Below, in pieces: positions 13,658 through 23,169 of a DNA stretch of 24,570 nt (the first letter of the stretch is position 1; each line of letters starts with the position of its first letter). Under the pieces are notes generated by a model. The model saw only the letters and a program-made list of their open reading frames with translations, searched no databases and had not been told where the DNA came from. Where the stretch lies: positions 1 to 24,570 of IMG/VR virus record IMGVR_UViG_3300020336_000268; one strand, given 5' to 3'. This stretch comes from a virus (taxonomy: Duplodnaviria > Caudoviricetes). The position numbers were made by a program, and so were the translations under genes.

Positions 13658-14770
13658 TTAATCTGCTCTAAAAGGTGTCCATCTATCACGTGGAACTAAC
13701 TTAACTTTGTCTTTAGTCTTAACAAAGCCTTCACCTCCGGGCTTGCCACCTGTTGTAGCAACTACATCACCTTCTGCTTTATCAAGCTCTGCAATTACTT
13801 CATTCTTAGCTTTCATAAGCTCTGTAACAAGGAAAAATATGTTTGCCGCAGTTTGCTTACTACTGTCTATAATACTTATAATCTTTTGCTGTTTATTGGC
13901 GGAAACCTTTGAATTTTGAAGCCAATTAAGGAAACTGTCTACTCTTAGGTCGTCTAGCTTTTTAGCTCTACTCATTTGATTTACAAATGTGTACATGATA
14001 TCGCTGATATCACTTAGTCCAGGACGCTTCTCAAAAAACTTAGCAATGTTTGCCTGTTCTTTGTTTGCTACCTTTTCTATGTTGCCTAAGTTATCTGCAT
14101 TCACTGGCGGTGCTTTGCTTACGTACTGTTGTCCTAATACTAAAAGATCTGCTGTGCCATTAAATTGTTTTACATCTTCGATGGGTGTGCCTGACTTATC
14201 GCCAAAGTATTCATATGCTGAATGTGCTGCAACACCAACTTTACTTTTGCCTACCTTACGTCCAATATCACTTTGTGCCTTAACATTGTAAGTAGTTTGA
14301 TTAGGAGTAAAACTAATTGCTCCGTCACTGCCTTGATAAGGTTTACCTGGATGGTATAGTAAGTCACCATACATGTAACCTCTGAAGTCCGGTGGAGTCG
14401 CTGCTTCGAATATCGGCCATAGGCTTGCCATATCTTTTGCAAACTTAGGTCTCCAATCTTCGCCCTTGCCTCTGCTGTTGATAAACTTTTCTAAGTCATC
14501 AGCTGAGTTAGACTTACCTTCTTCCTTACCCCAATTATTTTTTCCAACTAATCTAAACTGTCCGTCATCTTCACGCCCCCAGTACACTGTTGGATTACCA
14601 TCCCATTTAACTGCAACATCACTAGCATCTTGCTCCATGCTTTTAAGAATTTCAACTGCACGTTTAGCACCGTCACTAGGATTAGTAAACACTAGGTCTT
14701 CTAAGTGATTAAACTCTCTACCTACTGCTTCTGTTAATACTGCTTCTGTTAAAAACTCAAAAGCTCTCAT
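13658..14770 (-). CDS. Ligase-superfamily (KxDG) nucleotidyltransferase-like phage protein
   Basis: HLEDL, motif I VKWDG, YGDLLY, motif IV GEGFV, motif V KLV.R. Confidence 0.65.
   Translation of the reverse strand: MRAFEFLTEAVLTEAVGREFNHLEDLVFTNPSDGAKRAVEILKSMEQDASDVAVKWDGNPTVYWGREDDGQFRLVGKNNWGKEEGKSNSADDLEKFINSRGKGEDWRPKFAKDMASLWPIFEAATPPDFRGYMYGDLLYHPGKPYQGSDGAISFTPNQTTYNVKAQSDIGRKVGKSKVGVAAHSAYEYFGDKSGTPIEDVKQFNGTADLLVLGQQYVSKAPPVNADNLGNIEKVANKEQANIAKFFEKRPGLSDISDIMYTFVNQMSRAKKLDDLRVDSFLNWLQNSKVSANKQQKIISIIDSSKQTAANIFFLVTELMKAKNEVIAELDKAEGDVVATTGGKPGGEGFVKTKDKVKLVPRDRWTPFRAD
14723..14752. repeat. Perfect 15-nt tandem duplication encoding LTEAV-LTEAV
   Basis: tactgcttctgttaa twice (14723-14737, 14738-14752). 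Confidence 0.95.
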
Positions 14771-15909
14771 TTCTTAATCCTTTGTAATAGTTCATCTTTC
14801 GTAAGTTTAAACCTACTGTTCTTCCAGTCTGCTTTTAGAGTATTTAGTGTATTTCCTATCTCTGGTCCAGGTTTCATTCCCATGCGTATTAGGTCCTGTC
14901 CGTCTACAGGAAATGCAGGAATGTCTGAGTCTATATCTAAATTGTCCTTGCCTTGCATTTTTGCTAGTGCTGTAATTAGGTTACGGCTTATACCGTCAGC
15001 TAACATATCTTCTACTTTGTTTTGATCAAGTGCGTTGTCTTTGTGTTTAACTAGAAACTTAATTATTTGTGCTTCTGGATTAGACATCTTCCAACGACTT
15101 GCAATATCACCTTCGTTACCTAATTGTACTAGTGCTATTAACGGATCTTTTGTATCCTTTACTGCATTTACATTGTTTACGTTTAATCCTATAGCTTTGG
15201 CTACACCTGTTTTACTCATTGCTGTTAAAGTATCTACAACATTTTGTCCTGTAAGAAGTTTAGATACTTCTTGCCAAACACGTTCTACACTTATCTTTTT
15301 CAATCCACTTGCAGTCTTTTTAATAGCAGCGAGTGTATCTTTATCAAAACTTGGTTTGTCTAATCTACTTTGAAATCTAAAATATCTAAGAATACGTAGG
15401 TAGTCTTCTTTAATTCTTTCTTCAGGATCTCCAACAAACTTTGAAACTTTATTTTGTAAATCGTCCATGCCATTATAGTAATCATGAACTTCACCGTCCA
15501 TGCTCATACTCATAGCATTGTAAGTTAAATCTCTGCGCTTTGCGTCTTGTTCCCAAGAACGTACAAATTCAACGTCAGCATGTCTGCCATCTGTTTCTTT
15601 ATCTGCTCTTAGTGTGGTAATCTCGTATGGTTCGTTATTATACACGGCTGTGATAGTTCCGTGTTCAACTCCTGTTGGTACGACTTTGATTTTAGACTTT
15701 TCTAAAAACTTTGTCATTTCATCTGGAGTAGCGTCGGTAGCAAAGTCAATGTCTTTAGGCTGTTTACCTAGTACAACATCTCTAACTGCTCCGCCAACAA
15801 GTCTAAGTTCATGCCCGTGTTTTTTAAACAAATTACCTAAAAATTTTATGTCTTTGGTAATTATGTCTTTGTGCTTTTTATCTTCTATTAAGAATTCAAA
15901 AGCTCTCAT
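14767..15909 (-). CDS. cca: Class II tRNA nucleotidyltransferase (CCA-adding enzyme)
   Basis: VGGAVRD, DIDFAT, EITTLR..TDGRHA.VEF, DAKRRDLTYNAM, EDYLRILRYFRF, SVERVWQE. Confidence 0.93.
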   Translation of the reverse strand: MRAFEFLIEDKKHKDIITKDIKFLGNLFKKHGHELRLVGGAVRDVVLGKQPKDIDFATDATPDEMTKFLEKSKIKVVPTGVEHGTITAVYNNEPYEITTLRADKETDGRHADVEFVRSWEQDAKRRDLTYNAMSMSMDGEVHDYYNGMDDLQNKVSKFVGDPEERIKEDYLRILRYFRFQSRLDKPSFDKDTLAAIKKTASGLKKISVERVWQEVSKLLTGQNVVDTLTAMSKTGVAKAIGLNVNNVNAVKDTKDPLIALVQLGNEGDIASRWKMSNPEAQIIKFLVKHKDNALDQNKVEDMLADGISRNLITALAKMQGKDNLDIDSDIPAFPVDGQDLIRMGMKPGPEIGNTLNTLKADWKNSRFKLTKDELLQRIKK

Positions 15910-17470: not shown

Positions 17471-17653
17471 ATGGCTACTATGCTATTCAACGGCCTTGTG
17501 AGTTTGCTTGGATCCTTTCGCACACCTAGAAGTGCGTTTGAAAAAGAGATGCTCACTTACGCCAAAACTGAGTACGGAAAAGATTGGCAATATGCCTATC
17601 AATACATGATCGCCCACAAGGGTCAAGGCCCAAGAATGGGGGTGAACGCATAA
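17471..17653 (+). CDS. Small hypothetical protein (YAKTEYGKDWQYAY motif)
   Basis: AAGGAG RBS; TAATG coupling to the next gene. Confidence 0.8.
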   Translation: MATMLFNGLVSLLGSFRTPRSAFEKEMLTYAKTEYGKDWQYAYQYMIAHKGQGPRMGVNA

Positions 17654-17874
17654 TGACTGCAATTGAATTAAAACAAACTACATGGAACTTCACATGTAAA
17701 GCATGTACTATAATTCGTAACACTTTGTTTACGTTATGGGTAGGTACAATTGCTTTCGGTGAAACAGCAGGTCGTGCTAGAGCTGCTAATGAACTTGCTC
17801 GTATGGGATATTACGATCAAGCTAAAAAACTAATGACGGAGAGAGATAATGTTACTGCTAAAGAAACTGTATAA
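17653..17874 (+). CDS. Small hypothetical protein, 73 aa (AGRARAANELARMGY..QAK.LM motif)
   Basis: ATG at 17653 overlaps the upstream TAA; GGGGGTG upstream. Confidence 0.78.
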   Translation: MTAIELKQTTWNFTCKACTIIRNTLFTLWVGTIAFGETAGRARAANELARMGYYDQAKKLMTERDNVTAKETV

Positions 17875-18097
17875 CAATTTAGAAATTGCTGGATACGGTA
17901 GAGCAGCAAACTTAATGCGTCTACAAGGAAGACCGGATCTATCAGCGGACTTACTTAAAGAGCAAAAACGTCTACAAACTGTCAAGCGTAAAGCAATCGA
18001 AAGACTAGAAAGGATAAGAAAAGCCAAATCAAATTACGAGCCTGGCGATCATTACTTTAAAGGTAAGACTGTAGCATTTTGGAAGGGGCATGCATAA
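17849..18097 (+). CDS. Small basic hypothetical protein (AGYGRAANLMRLQG motif), probable paralogue of the preceding gene
   Basis: GGAG RBS; shares the AGxxRAANxxxxxG pattern. Confidence 0.75.
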   Translation: MLLLKKLYNNLEIAGYGRAANLMRLQGRPDLSADLLKEQKRLQTVKRKAIERLERIRKAKSNYEPGDHYFKGKTVAFWKGHA

Positions 18098-18204: not shown

Positions 18205-18233
18205 TTGACAGAGATAAATAATAGTGTTACATT
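18205..18233 (+). promoter_or_regulatory. sigma70 promoter TTGACA-N17-TACATT (extended -10) with a late box ATAAATA nested in its spacer
   Basis: Read directly; TAAATA at 18215-18220. Confidence 0.75.
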
Positions 18234-18275
18234 ACTAATGTAGCATAACACACAAACACACAAAGGAGAAAGAAA

Positions 18276-18545
18276 ATGTCACTCGACAAAATCAAGGACG
18301 CACTACCTAAAGTGCAATTCAATAAAAACGGTTACGAAATTCGCACAGAAGTTTTAGAAATGGCTAAACACTTCACAGAGTTTGAATACTCAAACAAATG
18401 GATGGGTTGGGAAGTATCTGCAAAACGTGATAAAGAAACTGGTCAAATCATTAACAAAGTTGATATGCCAGAAATTCCAGGTTCTAAAGAAGTTTTAGAA
18501 ACAGCCGAGGAGTTTTACAAGTTCGTAACAGGAACATCAAAGTAG
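18276..18545 (+). CDS. Conserved phage hypothetical protein (NKNGYEIR..VLEMAK...P...EVL..A..FY.FV)
   Basis: AAGGAG RBS after a CA-rich leader; biased codon usage. Confidence 0.85.
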   Translation: MSLDKIKDALPKVQFNKNGYEIRTEVLEMAKHFTEFEYSNKWMGWEVSAKRDKETGQIINKVDMPEIPGSKEVLETAEEFYKFVTGTSK

Positions 18546-18644
18546 AATAGTAATGCACATGATAATAGTTTCCTAACAGCAGGATGAAGATTATATATAG
18601 AACGGCATAGCCTCAGATAATAGGAACATTACATTTAAATTGGA

Positions 18645-18676
18645 GAAAGGGTAGCCAGGTTGCTACCTTTTCTTTT
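18645..18676 (+). terminator. Rho-independent terminator
   Basis: GAAAGGGTAGC-CAGGTT-GCTACCTTTTC followed by TTTT. Confidence 0.85.
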
Positions 18677-18686
18677 GGGTGCAACT

Positions 18687-18692
18687 TAAATA
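18687..18692 (+). promoter_or_regulatory. Late box TAAATA, 5 nt upstream of the hemF ATG (leaderless)
   Basis: TAAATA-CTGCC-ATG immediately after a terminator; no Shine-Dalgarno sequence. Confidence 0.65.
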
Positions 18693-18697
18693 CTGCC

Positions 18698-19516
18698 ATG
18701 AACACATTGTATACTGAATGGTTTGCACAACTTGCGCAAATTATAGAAGATAACATCAATGAAGTAGAAGCTAGATTTACACCCAAAGATCCTATTAAAA
18801 TGGACCAAGGTGGACATTCAAGCAGAGAGGGATGGACTCAAACACACAAAGTTATACGTGGAAATGTATTTGAAAAAGGTACAGTAAATTACTCGTGTGT
18901 TACTGGAGAGTTTGATCCAAAATTTGCAAAAGAAATTCCAGGCACAACTGATGAGAATAGAGAGTACTATGCCACAGGTATAAGTGTAGTATTGCACCCT
19001 ACTAATCCTTGGGTACCAGCAATGCACTTCAACACAAGATACCTTAAGACACACGACAAAGAATGGTTTGGTGGTGGTATGGATCTAACTCCTTGCTTAG
19101 ATGATGAGAAGTTTAAAGTAAAGTATCACCAAGAGCTTAAAAAGATTTGTGATTTATATGATACAACTTGGTACGATAAGTTTAGTAAAGCATGTGATGA
19201 ATACTTTTACTTGCCACACAGAAAAGAAACAAGAGGTATCGGAGGTTTGTTCTTTGAATACTATTCACCAGAGGACATGGACTTTAAATTTGTAGAACGT
19301 ATGGGCATTAAGTTTGCAGATGTAATGAGAACAACTGCAATTAACTATATGAACAACAACTACACAGACGAGCATAAAGATATACAAAAGATCAAACGTG
19401 GACGATATGTAGAGTTCAACTTATTATATGATCGTGGAACTAAGTTTGGTTTTAAAACAGGTGGTAACATGGAAGCAATCTTAATGAGCTTACCGCCAGA
19501 TGTGAGTTGGCCGTGA
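18698..19516 (+). CDS. hemF: Oxygen-dependent coproporphyrinogen III oxidase
   Basis: VFEK..VNYS, ATGISVVLHP.NP.VPAMHFNTRY, WFGGGMDLTP, CDEYFYLPHR.ETRGIGGLF, RGRYVEFNLLYDRGTKFG, ILMSLPP...W. Confidence 0.96.
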   Translation: MNTLYTEWFAQLAQIIEDNINEVEARFTPKDPIKMDQGGHSSREGWTQTHKVIRGNVFEKGTVNYSCVTGEFDPKFAKEIPGTTDENREYYATGISVVLHPTNPWVPAMHFNTRYLKTHDKEWFGGGMDLTPCLDDEKFKVKYHQELKKICDLYDTTWYDKFSKACDEYFYLPHRKETRGIGGLFFEYYSPEDMDFKFVERMGIKFADVMRTTAINYMNNNYTDEHKDIQKIKRGRYVEFNLLYDRGTKFGFKTGGNMEAILMSLPPDVSWP

Positions 19517-19602
19517 ACATTGGGATAGGTGCATTAACTGCTGCTATCTTAGCATTCATTGCTTGGGTCATAAGGAAGGTTAGAAATGAAGATAGGCGTT
19601 AG
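19513..19602 (+). CDS. 29-aa single-pass membrane peptide (MNIGIGALTAAILAFIAWVIRKVRNEDRR)
   Basis: GTG overlaps the hemF TGA (GTGA); spans the gap and overlaps the hemC start; hydrophobic helix followed by a basic tail. Confidence 0.6.
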   Translation: MNIGIGALTAAILAFIAWVIRKVRNEDRR

Positions 19603-20407
19603 AGGAAGTAAACTAGCATTGCAGTATGCAAGTAGAGCAGCGGCTCTAATAAGTGACCCAGAGATTGTTACGATAAAAACAGAAGCAGAAATTAATCCAG
19701 ACACGCCTATATTAGAAATGGGCGGCAAGGGAGTATTTTGTAAGGCCATTGAGCAGAAGTTATTAGATAACGAAATTGATATTGCTGTTCATAGTTTAAA
19801 AGATTTACCAAGAGACTCAGATGATGTTCTTGAGATATCAGCAGTACTAGATCGAAGCGACCCTAGAGATTGTGTAATAGGTGATCCTACAAAATTAGGT
19901 GCAAAGATAGGAACAGGTAGTCCTCGCAGAATTGCACAACTAAAAAGATTATATCCAGATGCAGAGATAGTTTCTATTAGAGGAAATATTGACACACGTA
20001 TTTCTAAAGTAGAAAGCGGACAGTATGATGCTATTGTACTTGCTGTTGCAGGACTAGAAGCATTAGGATTAGAACACAAGATAACAAAGATATTTAACTT
20101 TGACGAAATGTTACCAGCAGTTGGTCAAGGTGTTATTGCATTACAAACAAGAAAGAAAAGTTCCGCAAGTTATTTGTTAAGCAGTTCGTCTGATCCAGAC
20201 ACATATAAAGGAGCAATGGCTGAACGCAAGATGCTTGAAGTTATAGATGGTGACTGCCATACTGCTGTTGGTTGTATATCTAGTGTTGTTGGAGACTGTC
20301 TAATGATTAGAGCCTACAACTTTGAAACAGATAAGTATAGTGAAGTAATAGGTAAGAAAGAAAACTATCTAGAACTTGGCGAACAACTAGGAACGAAACT
20401 TATATGA
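19586..20407 (+). CDS. hemC: Hydroxymethylbilane synthase (porphobilinogen deaminase)
   Basis: IG.RGSKLAL, GGKGVF, AVHSLKDLP, R.DPRD, GTGSPRR, RGNIDTR, LPAVGQG, AER, cofactor Cys in GDCHTAVG. Confidence 0.95.
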   Translation: MKIGVRGSKLALQYASRAAALISDPEIVTIKTEAEINPDTPILEMGGKGVFCKAIEQKLLDNEIDIAVHSLKDLPRDSDDVLEISAVLDRSDPRDCVIGDPTKLGAKIGTGSPRRIAQLKRLYPDAEIVSIRGNIDTRISKVESGQYDAIVLAVAGLEALGLEHKITKIFNFDEMLPAVGQGVIALQTRKKSSASYLLSSSSDPDTYKGAMAERKMLEVIDGDCHTAVGCISSVVGDCLMIRAYNFETDKYSEVIGKKENYLELGEQLGTKLI

Positions 20408-21381
20408 ATGAAAAATTTACTAATGCCTGCAATAGGGTAGAACAGTCTTGCCCTCCGATATGGATGATGAGACAAGCTGGAAGATACCAGCAACCTTATA
20501 TGGAGATGAAAGAGAAGTTTACCTTTGAACAAATGTGTAAGTTACCTAGGGTGGCTGCCGATGTAGCAATGCTACCAATTGATCAATTTGATTTTGATAT
20601 TGCAATACTGTTTAGCGACATACTATTTCCTATTGAAGGACTAGGTGTGCCTTTAAAGTTTGCACCAGGTCCACAGTTTGAATGGTACATCAACGAAGAC
20701 AACTATAAAGATCATAAGAACGTTTCACGTGCAGTAGAACACATGCACTTTCAGAAAGCTGCTGTTTCTGCAACTAGAGAGAAACTACATAAATCAAAAA
20801 GCCTAATAGGATTTGTAGGCGGCCCATGGACATTGTTAAATTATGCTACAGGTAAAAAACCTAACATGGATTTAAAATGGAAAGCAGCGTACATGGAAGA
20901 AGTAATTGTTCCTGTGCTATCACGTAACATACATTTACAACTAGAAGCAGGTGCAGAGAAAGTTATGATACTTGATAGTGGTGTAGCCAACATGAGTGAG
21001 TCTTTCTTTAAAACACATTACGTTAATCTATTACAACCACTAATAGATTCTGATACAGGATACTATACACAACATCTAAATCATAAGTGTTTACCTACAC
21101 TGTATAGAATGGGCTGGGCAGGATTAGGTATTGATAGTGGAGTTGATATACATAGAACGTTTAAGAAATATCAAGATGGATTTATACAAGGCAACTTCGA
21201 TGAGAAGTTAATGATGACACCTGGACTATACCTAAAGAAAGAAATATCGGAATGGCTTGACAGCATGGAGCGTATTGATAGAACTGGTTGGATATGCGGA
21301 CTAGGACATGGCATACATAAAGAGACACCAGAGGACAACGTAAAACTATTTGTAGACATGGTTAGGGAAAGATTTGAATGA
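20404..21381 (+). CDS. hemE: Uroporphyrinogen decarboxylase
   Basis: PIWMMRQAGRY, AILFSDIL, LIGFVGGPWTL..Y, QGNFD, LGHGI...TP; ATGA overlap. Confidence 0.95.
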   Translation: MNEKFTNACNRVEQSCPPIWMMRQAGRYQQPYMEMKEKFTFEQMCKLPRVAADVAMLPIDQFDFDIAILFSDILFPIEGLGVPLKFAPGPQFEWYINEDNYKDHKNVSRAVEHMHFQKAAVSATREKLHKSKSLIGFVGGPWTLLNYATGKKPNMDLKWKAAYMEEVIVPVLSRNIHLQLEAGAEKVMILDSGVANMSESFFKTHYVNLLQPLIDSDTGYYTQHLNHKCLPTLYRMGWAGLGIDSGVDIHRTFKKYQDGFIQGNFDEKLMMTPGLYLKKEISEWLDSMERIDRTGWICGLGHGIHKETPEDNVKLFVDMVRERFE

Positions 21382-22229
21382 GGCTGATACAACCGTATTT
21401 TATTAGTAATCAAAATAACGGTGATGATTGGATCAATTCATCTAAGCAATCTGTACTTGGTAACGACAATCATACTTGGTCAGTTAAAGGTGCAGTAGAT
21501 ACTATTGGTAGAGATATTATACTAGGTGTCCAAGACATTTTAGTATTTGTTATACCAGACAAGACGGAATCCCCAGATTGGGAATTAAACAAGCGTGTTG
21601 TCAGCGAAATTAAAGCAGCACACGGAGATAAAGTAAACTTACATGTTGATATATGTTTGTGTTCTACTACGCTAGATGGGCATTGTTGCTATCCTGAGGA
21701 CATGAATAAAACGTACGATCAACTACTTCAACAAGCAACTGCTGTACACGAAGCAGGAGCAGATGTATTAGCACCTAGTGACTGTCAAGACCAAACTGTG
21801 TTAGTACTTAAAGAAAATCTAAAAGCAAAAGTAATGAGCTATTCAACAAAGTTTAGGTCAGCATTCTATGATGGGTTTAGACAAACTATTGGTGTTGAAA
21901 AAGGAATACACAGAGGTTATCAATTAGATGTAAATGATAGAGAACTTGCAATTTGCCGTAGTCAAAAATATCACAGAGACGGTGCTGATATGTTAATGGT
22001 AAAGCCTGGCATGACTAGTATTGATCTTATTATTCCTATTAAAGAAGCAACAGGATATTCTGTTCCTGTAGGTGTTTATCAAACAAGTGGCGAGTATATT
22101 GGTTTACAACGTAATGGTTGGTTGGTTTATGAAATGTTAAAAGAAACACATGATGTTTTTAAACGTGCAGGTGCTTCTTATATGATTACTTACGGTGCTA
22201 GGGAATTACTTAAACAAAAAGACTGCTAA
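21378..22229 (+). CDS. hemB: Porphobilinogen synthase (ALA dehydratase), Zn-type, N-terminally shortened
   Basis: DICLCSTT.DGHC Zn site, AGAD.LAPSD, MSYSTKF.SAFY..FR, YQLD, GADMLMVKP, YQTSGEY, KRAGA..ITY; ATGA overlap. Confidence 0.93.
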   Translation: MRLIQPYFISNQNNGDDWINSSKQSVLGNDNHTWSVKGAVDTIGRDIILGVQDILVFVIPDKTESPDWELNKRVVSEIKAAHGDKVNLHVDICLCSTTLDGHCCYPEDMNKTYDQLLQQATAVHEAGADVLAPSDCQDQTVLVLKENLKAKVMSYSTKFRSAFYDGFRQTIGVEKGIHRGYQLDVNDRELAICRSQKYHRDGADMLMVKPGMTSIDLIIPIKEATGYSVPVGVYQTSGEYIGLQRNGWLVYEMLKETHDVFKRAGASYMITYGARELLKQKDC

Positions 22230-23169
22230 CTGATTCTTCATTGGTTATTCTACGCATTGCTTCACCGAACAAAGGTGCTACACTTACCTGACGTGTTTTC
22301 TTACAACCCTTAGGACAACGACTTGAAATAGTATCTGTAATAACTAATTCATCTAATACTGACTTCTCAATCTTTTGACATGCATCGTTACTTAATACAC
22401 CATGTGTGATATATGCACGTACACTAAGAGCACCTGCATCCATAATTGATTTGGCTGCACTGCAAAGTGTTCCGCCACTATCAATAATGTCATCTACTAG
22501 AATAGCATGACGACCTTTAACATTACCAATCAAGTTCATTACTTCTGACTTTCCTGCTTCAGGACGCATTTTATCTACAATAGCAATGTCACCTGTAAAC
22601 ATATCAGCAAACTTACGAGCCCTTACTGCACCACCTGCATCTGGAGATACAAATACTGTACCTGCTTGATTAACTTCTGGGTCATCAATAATACCAATAG
22701 TGCGTTTGATGTCTTTTGCAAATATTACACGACTTGTTAAATCATCTACAGGAATATCAAAGAAGCCCTGTATCTGTCCTGCGTGTAAATCCATAGTTAA
22801 GATTCTATCTGCACCAGATGTTGTTAATAGGTTAGCAACTAGTTTTGCCGTAATAGGTGTTCGACTTGCACTCTTACGATCCTGTCTAGCATAACCATAG
22901 TAAGGAATAACTGCTGTAATACGACTAGCACTTGATCTACGTGCTGCATCAATCATTACCATTAGTTCCATAAGACTATTGTTGACGGGCTGACTTGTGC
23001 TTTGAATAATAAAAACATCTTCGCCTCTAACGTTTTCTAAAAACTCTACGCTAGATTCTCCGTCTGCAAATGTTGAAACTTTGGCTGGTACAAGATCACT
23101 AAAACAATGTTCAGCGATCTCTTGTGCTAATTTAGGATTAGCATTTCCGGTAATGATTTTCATTTTCAA
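22210..23169 (-). CDS. prs: Ribose-phosphate pyrophosphokinase (PRPP synthetase)
   Basis: FADGE, PYYGYARQDRK, DLHAGQIQGFFDIP, VSPDAG...RA, VDDIIDSGGTL, THGVLS; 3' end overlaps hemB by 20 nt. Confidence 0.97.
   Translation of the reverse strand: MKMKIITGNANPKLAQEIAEHCFSDLVPAKVSTFADGESSVEFLENVRGEDVFIIQSTSQPVNNSLMELMVMIDAARRSSASRITAVIPYYGYARQDRKSASRTPITAKLVANLLTTSGADRILTMDLHAGQIQGFFDIPVDDLTSRVIFAKDIKRTIGIIDDPEVNQAGTVFVSPDAGGAVRARKFADMFTGDIAIVDKMRPEAGKSEVMNLIGNVKGRHAILVDDIIDSGGTLCSAAKSIMDAGALSVRAYITHGVLSNDACQKIEKSVLDELVITDTISSRCPKGCKKTRQVSVAPLFGEAMRRITNEESVSSLFV

What the first reader, a model, noticed from the sequence alone, without database searches (positions are those of the whole stretch)
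18687..22229. Phage-encoded tetrapyrrole/haem operon hemF-hemC-hemE-hemB under an apparent phage late promoter
Seen: four recognisable enzymes with intact catalytic motifs, overlapping start/stop codons, phage-like base composition, and TAAATA-N5-ATG directly after a terminator. Established: these enzymes cover ALA to protoporphyrinogen IX except for HemD. The tetrapyrrole genes I know from phages are mostly downstream bilin enzymes (ho1, pcyA, pebS), and this gene order is not a usual bacterial operon. Inference: a domesticated viral porphyrin module that raises haem, corrin or bacteriochlorophyll precursor flux late in infection, or produces porphyrins for another purpose such as photo-oxidative lysis or iron handling.
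Basis: partly seen in the sequence, partly recalled or inferred. Interest (0 to 1): 0.92.

Follow-up and report, generated by a model that had tools for sequence, protein, structure and literature searches.

The report
Jumbo phage four-enzyme haem operon
A very large marine bacterial virus carries intact genes for four consecutive-pathway haem-building enzymes in one tightly packed block, including a trimmed enzyme whose sampled relatives form a virus-only group, and likely uses them to keep haem production running in the infected cell while the host would supply the steps not found in the virus.

Summary
hemF, hemC, hemE and hemB are intact, keep their catalytic residues, and are under purifying selection. 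The same order sits in 15 other contigs, and contigs from four studies bridge both borders, so it is no chimera. A close relative (G001; predicted genome about 340 kb) also encodes ALA synthase, haem oxygenase and a bilin reductase. HemD was found in 0 of 38 related records. TAAATA-N5-ATG is a recurrent phage motif, likely a late promoter giving leaderless mRNA; more distant kin lack it at hemF. Additions: a conserved 25-29 aa hydrophobic ORF joins hemF to hemC; HemB lacks the N-terminal arm; the block is a mosaic (HemC SAR11-related; HemB and HemE closest to an atypical bacterial hem operon). Best reading: an auxiliary module feeding haem and bilin synthesis with host HemD, HemJ and HemH. Corrin and photolysis readings are not supported. 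Phage hemA, hemC, hemF and hemH are already in print; I found no paper on this operon or on armless HemB. This scan noted similar phage haem sets several times on other DNA. No enzyme activity or infection timing was tested.

The parts
18205..18233 (+). Sigma-70-like promoter (TTGACA-17-TACATT) with a TAAATA (18215-18220) inside its spacer, upstream of the 89-aa gene
   Evidence: (10 of 12 match); same nested layout in distant relative L250; RNA contigs of two studies begin at 18240 (weak hint)
18276..18545 (+). 89-aa conserved phage protein of unknown function, always directly upstream of hemF in this lineage and in L250-type kin
   Evidence: atlas look-alikes are 95-100% viral, no Pfam
18642..18675 (+). 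14-bp hairpin with U-rich 3' side, likely terminator of the upstream gene
   Evidence: z -3.8; conserved with G-U changes in 11 relatives; two RNA contigs of one study end at 18644 and 18650; not listed by the scanner
18687..18692 (+). TAAATA motif 5 nt before the hemF ATG; likely phage late promoter giving a leaderless mRNA
   Evidence: (kept in 11 of 11 close relatives); absent in L250; resembles ATAAATA/TATAAATA motifs (PMC5259590)
18698..19516 (+). hemF, oxygen-dependent coproporphyrinogen III oxidase, 272 aa
   Evidence: motifs MHFNTR, GGGMDLTP, RGRYVEFN; dN/dS 0-0.14
19513..19602 (+). Small hydrophobic ORF (29 aa here, 25 aa in 6 of 11 relatives), start overlapping the hemF stop and end overlapping the hemC start; predicted single transmembrane peptide or translational coupler
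   Evidence: frame open in 11 of 11 relatives, GTG or ATG start, synonymous and conservative changes; mean hydropathy 2.1 over 19 aa; absent in L250
19586..20407 (+). hemC, hydroxymethylbilane synthase, 273 aa
   Evidence: D73, C224 and the Arg set kept, one Arg (position 159) replaced as in 51 of 51 SAR11 HemC; dN/dS 0.06-0.15
20404..21381 (+). hemE, uroporphyrinogen decarboxylase, 325 aa
   Evidence: R23, R27, D72, Y147, S192, H302 invariant in 36 sequences; dN/dS 0.07-0.11
21378..22229 (+). hemB, zinc-type porphobilinogen synthase lacking the N-terminal arm, 283 aa
   Evidence: C93/C95/C103, K158, K209, R168, R179 invariant in 58 of 58 viral-locus sequences; pLDDT 91; TM 0.87 to solved PBGS; dN/dS 0.18-0.24
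22210..23169 (-). prs, ribose-phosphate pyrophosphokinase, convergent with hemB and overlapping it by 20 nt; marks the right border

Best explanation
This is a four-gene haem-pathway block of a marine T4-related jumbo phage that likely acts as an auxiliary metabolic operon: it would be transcribed from the TAAATA motif as one translationally coupled, leaderless message and, with the phage's separate ALA synthase, would keep haem synthesis running after host shut-off. Shown: the genes, their catalytic residues, purifying selection, conserved order, and ALA synthase, haem oxygenase and bilin reductase in a close relative. Inferred: phage HemA makes ALA, phage HemB and HemC make the bilane, host HemD closes the ring, phage HemE and HemF carry it to protoporphyrinogen IX (also pulling flux away from the sirohaem and corrin branch), and host HemJ and HemH finish haem for respiratory cytochromes; part is opened by the phage haem oxygenase and bilin reductase. 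Predicted: the armless HemB is a zinc enzyme freed from magnesium and octamer-hexamer control. The block was assembled inside phage genomes from separately acquired genes. The host is likely an alphaproteobacterium, not identified.
For: Families and residues. Same order in 11 IMG/VR contigs at 81-100% identity and 4 metagenome contigs. dN/dS 0-0.24 against five close relatives. G001 carries ALA synthase (above the TIGR01821 cut-off), haem oxygenase and a bilin reductase; L303, L250, L252, L264 also have ALA synthase nearby. The one complete related genome (G002, 177 kb) has hemA, hemF-hemB-hemC and haem oxygenase but no HemD, HemE, HemH or HemJ match, which fits supplementing a host pathway. 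5 of 5 alphaproteobacterial genomes tested, four of them SAR11-type, have HemD. Metatranscriptome contigs from three studies cover parts of all four genes and bridge hemC/hemE and hemE/hemB. Motif placement p 1.7e-8. A phage ALA synthase is shown active in PMC11480375.
Against: No activity, timing or haem level was measured. RNA evidence is assembled contigs only; DNA carry-over is not excluded and no single transcript is shown. HemB and HemE fall below their NCBIfam equivalog cut-offs. PMC7729013 states that secure closing of the PBGS lid needs octamer contacts that involve the arm, so an armless enzyme could be weak. HemB has the highest dN/dS of the four. L250-type kin have hemF-hemC-hemE without TAAATA, the small ORF or hemB, and 56 of 80 viral hemB loci show no other hem gene nearby, so late co-expression of all four is not general. 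About two thirds of the phage genome was not seen, and HemD is poorly conserved (PMC7242693), so reliance on host HemD is unproven.
Confidence: 0.68

Rival explanations
1. The module mainly feeds the phage's haem oxygenase and bilin reductase: the end product that matters is a bilin (or recycled iron), not haem for respiration.
For: G001 and the complete G002 both carry haem oxygenase with ALA synthase; G001 has the adjacent bilin reductase. PMC11480375 calls the purpose of hemO/FDBR in such phages enigmatic.
Against: Haem oxygenase was found in only 2 of 5 large records tested (three are fragments); in G001 it lies about 30 kb from the block; making haem to release its iron yields no net iron (pathway logic).
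Confidence: 0.14
2. The phage encodes a self-sufficient ALA-to-haem pathway, with HemD, HemJ and HemH (possibly unrecognisably divergent) in the unseen part of the genome.
For: Related phages carry HemH (1 of 38 records) and HemJ (2 of 38). A HemD-like extension on a bacterial HemC escapes PF02602, so profile misses occur.
Against: HemD 0 of 38 records, 2.16 Mb; none in 6,131 six-frame ORFs with a 62-sequence HemD profile or the extension profile; none in an IMG/VR scan with SAR11 HemD patterns or in 50,697 GenBank phage records with one SAR11 HemD; complete G002 lacks D, E, H and J.
Confidence: 0.09
3. The armless HemB is weak or acts as a regulator (for example by mixing into host PBGS), or the HemD-less set overflows into type I porphyrins or photosensitisers that harm the host or aid lysis.
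For: Arm loss in 57 of 58 viral-locus HemB sequences removes contacts needed for lid closure (PMC7729013). Unclosed bilane cyclises to the type I isomer (recalled).
Against: Every catalytic residue is invariant in 58 of 58. HemF accepts only the type III isomer (recalled), so keeping hemF under dN/dS below 0.15 argues for type III flux. No lysis gene lies next to the block.
Confidence: 0.07
4. Host contamination, chimeric assembly or a recently captured bacterial operon.
For: GenBank phage records that match these genes look like host fragments, so such artefacts exist.
Against: best cellular identities 42-55%; phage structural genes flank the block.
Confidence: 0.01

Closest known systems
Haem-biosynthesis genes of pelagimyophages (Zaragoza-Solas et al. 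2020, PMC7029224; one main-text passage and a supplement search seen)
   Same: Marine T4-related phage with coproporphyrinogen oxidase and porphobilinogen deaminase; ferrochelatase in its AMG tables.
   Different: Mentioned in passing; no hemB, hemE, operon or promoter in the passages or supplement hits seen. Pelagimyophage-like HemC (L029-type) nests inside Pelagibacter, whereas the window's HemC belongs to a separate phage clade sister to SAR11.
Viral ALA synthase and hemO-pcyA/X-alaS cassettes (Wegner et al. 2024, PMC11480375; abstract, introduction, discussion, passages and supplement search seen)
   Same: Phage tetrapyrrole AMGs; the window's close relative G001 has all three gene types; same proposed purpose (maintain haem for respiration).
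   Different: Covers only the first and last steps; hemB, hemC, hemF have 0 main-text hits and six search terms had 0 hits in 11 supplement files.
Zinc-type porphobilinogen synthase (E. coli 1i8j, human 5hms; morpheein model, PMC7729013 passages seen)
   Same: TIM barrel (TM 0.87), Cys3 zinc site, two Schiff-base lysines, two lid arginines.
   Different: No N-terminal arm (5 residues before the first strand against a median of 30), and Arg194 where canonical bacterial sequences have the Glu recalled as the allosteric magnesium ligand.
Bacterial hem operons seen here: L165 (hemA-hemL-HK-RR-hemC-hemD-hemB-hemE-hemF) and L307-L312 (divergent hemA; extended hemC-hemB-hemE-hemF-hemJ)
   Same: Same four enzyme types clustered with overlapping frames; L307-type HemB and HemE are the nearest cellular relatives found (38-42%) and share STKF, YQLD, PGMTSIDL and YGAR signatures.
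   Different: Different order, include HemD or a HemD-like extension, and their HemC (29-32%) is not the source of the phage HemC.
ATAAATA/TATAAATA late promoters of phage CBB, GAP32 and T4 (PMC5259590 passages seen)
   Same: Same core hexamer before structural genes of this phage.
   Different: Here often 5 nt before the ATG, implying leaderless mRNA; no gp55 gene was seen in the available sequence; the CBB motif is itself only predicted.

Membership tests
Phage auxiliary metabolic gene cassette | Lies in a bona fide viral genome flanked by viral genes | tested here: met
   (virus record)
Phage auxiliary metabolic gene cassette | Intact and under purifying selection | tested here: met
   dN/dS 0-0.24 against five close relatives
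Phage auxiliary metabolic gene cassette | Expressed during infection | tested here: inconclusive
   RNA-run contigs from three studies, DNA carry-over not excluded
Phage auxiliary metabolic gene cassette | Alters host metabolism to benefit the phage | not testable with these tools
   needs a cultured phage-host pair
HemF (PF01218, NF003727) | Equivalog score and active-site motifs | tested here: met
HemC (TIGR00212) | Equivalog score, catalytic Asp, cofactor Cys | tested here: met
HemC (TIGR00212) | Full set of active-site arginines | tested here: not met
   position 159 is Ala; Arg in 28 of 28 non-SAR11 cells, 0 of 51 SAR11, so the loss is shared with SAR11's own HemC
HemE (PF01208, TIGR01464) | Catalytic Arg/Asp/Tyr/His residues | tested here: met
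HemE (PF01208, TIGR01464) | Equivalog cut-off 302.95 bits | tested here: not met
   210.4 bits
Zinc-type porphobilinogen synthase | DxCxCx7C zinc site, two lysines, lid arginines, TIM barrel | tested here: met
Zinc-type porphobilinogen synthase | N-terminal arm for octamer assembly | tested here: not met
Zinc-type porphobilinogen synthase | Oligomeric state and activity | not tested
   the complex-prediction queue was full; no job ran
Complete protoporphyrin haem pathway | HemD, HemG/J/Y and HemH present | tested here: inconclusive
   HemD, HemJ, HemH not found in G001 (31% complete); HemG and HemY not searched by family, no such Pfam hit among 118 G001 ORFs
T4-type late promoter | TAAATA-type motif placed before late genes | tested here: met
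T4-type late promoter | gp55-dependent start site at late times | not testable with these tools
   no raw RNA reads or time course; gp55 not in the sequence seen

The most novel reading that the evidence does not exclude
A widespread clade of ocean jumbo phages has built its own deregulated tetrapyrrole line from ALA to bilin out of parts from several donors, centred on a new arm-less class of porphobilinogen synthase that is fully active outside the octamer, with ring closure done by an unrecognised phage protein; this would overturn the rule that PBGS needs the octamer and show phages running haem synthesis largely on their own.
Probability: 0.17. Interest if true: 0.82.

Novelty: new variant of a known kind. 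Interest (0 to 1): 0.52.

Why it matters
It extends phage tetrapyrrole genes from single first or last steps to a coupled block of middle steps, in a virus whose DNA is held by at least 14 marine runs of 10 studies. It gives two cheap tests: whether an arm-less PBGS works (a natural test of the morpheein model), and whether marine phages maintain haem and divert uroporphyrinogen away from sirohaem and B12 in infected cells, which bears on iron use in the ocean.

Tried and rejected
Self-association of HemB: the complex-prediction queue was full, no job ran, no verdict. Cellular near-copy: direct HemC scan of genome contigs found none; the alignment scan covered only 15 of 64 parts of the collection. 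PHROGs has no family for any of the four enzymes. GenBank phage hits at 25-38% look like host fragments. HemD searches were all negative; best profile hit E 0.009 was a 502-aa non-HemD protein. Host naming: the genome search gave no taxon names; a strict PRPP-synthetase search returned nothing in 201 genomes; atlas hits for two small upstream proteins were unnamed viral clusters. My recalled idea that hemF-hemC-hemE came as one piece from a Rhodobacterales-type locus was not supported: 1 of 25 short alphaproteobacterial hemF loci had hemE and none hemC (flanks only 1.5 kb). RNA gaps (for example 21660-22079) prove nothing, and depth was not used to rank genes. The careful HemC tree did not finish; quick and FastTree trees were used, and long-branch warnings apply to the HemB and HemE joins. 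Corrin and photolysis readings rejected as above.
Full report
OBSERVATION. The window is the whole of a 24,570-base virus record. HemF and HemC pass their NCBIfam equivalog cut-offs; HemE and HemB do not. None has a PHROG. hemC/hemE and hemE/hemB overlap by ATGA. hemF and hemC are 69 nt apart; the gap holds a small hydrophobic ORF, 19513-19602, whose frame is open in 11 of 11 relatives, with GTG or ATG start on the hemF stop and, in 6 of 11, a stop on the hemC ATG. GC and GC3 match the phage's core genes.

IS IT VIRAL AND CONTIGUOUS. Flanking genes include nrdA/nrdB, a tail-spike-like gene, a PAAR protein, virion proteins and a CCA-adding enzyme; one flanking protein matches PA5oct- and Atu_ph07-like jumbo phages at about 28-32%. 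The order hemF-hemC-hemE-hemB, with the same neighbours, is in 11 IMG/VR contigs at 81-100% identity (two are identical to the window) and 4 metagenome contigs. Contigs from 4 of 4 DNA runs laid, from four studies, bridge both borders at even depth; any one may be the window's source. G001 is 107 kb and 31% complete by CheckV, and the HemB cluster occurs on contigs up to 338.5 kb, so the genome is about 340 kb. No near-identical cellular copy was found: HemC 46% at best among 80 kept loci from a partial scan, HemF 55% at best among the 150 listed matches in 251 alphaproteobacterial genomes, HemB 45% and HemE 42%.

ARE THE ENZYMES INTACT. HemF keeps its motifs. HemC keeps D73, C224 and the arginines except position 159, which is Arg in 28 of 28 non-SAR11 cells and 0 of 51 SAR11 sequences; the residue roles are recalled from E. 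coli work. HemE keeps R23, R27, D72, Y147, S192, H302. HemB keeps the Cys3 zinc site, both lysines and both lid arginines in 58 of 58 distinct viral-locus sequences, folds with pLDDT 91 and matches solved PBGS at TM 0.87. dN/dS against five close relatives: hemF 0-0.14, hemC 0.06-0.15, hemE 0.07-0.11, hemB 0.18-0.24.

ARMLESS HEMB. 57 of 58 viral-locus sequences have fewer than 20 residues before the first strand (median 5); 46 of 47 long homologues have 20 or more. The window has Arg194 where canonical bacterial sequences have Glu, the position I recall as the allosteric magnesium ligand. PMC7729013 (passages) says lid closure depends on octamer contacts that involve the arm and the magnesium or an equivalent Arg. 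So the phage enzyme is predicted either to be free of that control or to be a high-KM enzyme. The oligomer could not be modelled because the queue was full. One short HemB is labelled Pelagibacteraceae MAG on a 2.6-kb contig but nests among viral sequences.

MOSAIC ORIGIN. In the sampled trees each enzyme falls in a phage-only clade. HemC: 12 viral rows plus the window, sister to SAR11 (support 97-98), separate from pelagimyophage-like HemC nested in Pelagibacter; shared low GC could inflate this join, but the shared Arg loss agrees. HemB and HemE: nearest cellular relatives are in an atypical operon of unnamed low-GC marine bacteria (L307-L312: extended hemC-hemB-hemE-hemF-hemJ with divergent hemA), with shared signatures (long-branch warnings apply). 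HemF donor unresolved. Of 80 kept viral hemB loci (153 found): hemB alone 56, F-C-E-B 11, F-B-C 8, F-B 4, E-B-C 1; of 69 further hemE loci: E alone 40, E-F-C 10, E-C 8, C-E 5, F-C-E 4, two truncated (loci reach at most 10 kb and many are short). Distant kin have F-C-E then prs with no hemB (L250, L252, L264; PF00490 absent in 4 of 4 such fragments), and L021 has hemB then prs with no F-C-E. The four-gene block is thus a lineage-specific join of two modules. Among 80 cellular hemC loci only L165 had all four genes, in the order C-D-B-E-F.

REST OF THE PATHWAY. G001 has ALA synthase about 8 kb past hemB and adjacent haem oxygenase and bilin reductase (118 of its 158 called ORFs scanned, the rest being window homologues or very short or doubtful). 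HemD: 0 of 38 records, 2.16 Mb, only one complete; also negative. HemH 1 of 38 and HemJ 2 of 38, none in the window's lineage. The complete 177-kb G002 has A, F, B, C and haem oxygenase but no D, E, H or J. Against certainty: HemD is poorly conserved (PMC7242693 passages), a HemD-like extension escaped Pfam, an unchecked note reports a phage HemD-like gene (e1-5903408), and a coral virome paper lists hemD among annotated vAMGs (PMC13065750 passages).

PROMOTER. TAAATA is not over-represented overall but sits 4-8 nt before start codons in 16 of 97 cases in G001 against 18 of 866 control hexamers (p 1.7e-8), and precedes structural genes and nrdA in the window. It resembles predicted late motifs of CBB/GAP32 and T4 (PMC5259590 passages). 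The 5-nt gap leaves no room for a ribosome-binding site, so a leaderless mRNA is inferred. It is kept in 11 of 11 close relatives and absent before hemF in L250. RNA-run contigs from three studies cover parts of all four genes; two begin at 18240 and two end in the hairpin; these are hints only.

MECHANISM. Most likely (0.68) an auxiliary operon that, with phage ALA synthase and host HemD, HemJ and HemH, sustains haem for respiration late in infection, with some flow to bilin. HemE and HemF commit uroporphyrinogen III to protoporphyrin and away from precorrin, so the corrin idea fails. Host likely alphaproteobacterial: Shemin-type ALA synthase, alphaproteobacterial best plasmid hits for ALA synthase and prs at 54-57%, a DUF1127 gene and SAR11-related HemC; not identified.

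PRIOR KNOWLEDGE. Wegner 2024 covers valaS, hemO and FDBRs only. Zaragoza-Solas 2020 names coproporphyrinogen oxidase, porphobilinogen deaminase and ferrochelatase in pelagimyophages. A 2026 preprint lists hemF in a temperate phage (passages). Ten full-text searches ('hemE' is read as 'heme' by the tool) found no paper on a phage hemF-hemC-hemE-hemB operon or an armless PBGS; the library is open-access only. This scan recorded similar phage haem sets on other genomes.

VERDICT. Real, conserved and very likely functional; a new variant of a known kind of phage auxiliary gene set. The armless HemB and the missing HemD are the testable points. Interest 0.52.

Noticed in passing
L307:2794-8941; L312:7009-13159 (also L306, L308-L311): Cellular-looking marine contigs with hemA divergent from hemC-hemB-hemE-hemF-hemJ; HemC is about 505 aa with a 200-aa C-terminal extension that PF02602 misses and may be a fused HemD. 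Nearest cellular kin of the phage HemB and HemE.
   Followed up: partly
SAR11 hemC loci L099-L176: 0 of 51 SAR11 HemC sequences keep an active-site Arg present in 28 of 28 other cellular HemC (window position 159).
   Followed up: partly
window 17471-18097 (+): Run of small genes (60, 96, 82 aa) divergent from the structural region; in G001 a DUF1127 gene lies among them; variable gene content between strains.
   Followed up: partly
window 18205-18545: Nested sigma-70-like and TAAATA promoters before an 89-aa conserved phage protein; same layout in distant L250; RNA contigs start at 18240.
   Followed up: partly
window 14767-15909 (-): CCA-adding enzyme gene present in the window, L001, L002, L011 and absent at this site in L003-L006, L010, L012-L014: a mobile insert.
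   Followed up: no
G001:C1:7009-32951 (L093, L094): Dense cluster of at least nine radical-SAM genes with 2OG-Fe(II) oxygenases, an aminotransferase and an AMP-binding enzyme; with NifU elsewhere, a heavy iron demand.
   Followed up: no
G001:C1:43843-51761 (L095): CHASE2-adenylate/guanylate cyclase, FecR, two curlin-repeat proteins, CsgG and CsgF: a curli-like secretion set in a phage.
   Followed up: no
G001:C1:36301-36651 and 57292-57624: Phage-encoded RNA polymerase omega subunit and ribosomal protein S21; also ClpP (two), ClpS, Hsp20, AlgH-like and an AlkB-like desaturase.
   Followed up: no
L016 and L229-L259: In 20 or more related contigs hemE sits alone between kdsA and kdsB; one such record (G272) also has a ferrochelatase.
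   Followed up: partly
L029:3451-4284 and 12 other loci: Uncharacterised 277-aa gene (no Pfam hit) repeatedly placed directly before hemB in pelagimyophage-like contigs.
   Followed up: no
G004:C1:40649-41815: ALA synthase match with one in-frame TAG; broken gene or sequencing error.
   Followed up: no
G001-wide: TAAATA exactly 5 nt before ATG/GTG recurs about a dozen times, suggesting widespread leaderless late transcripts in this phage.
   Followed up: partly
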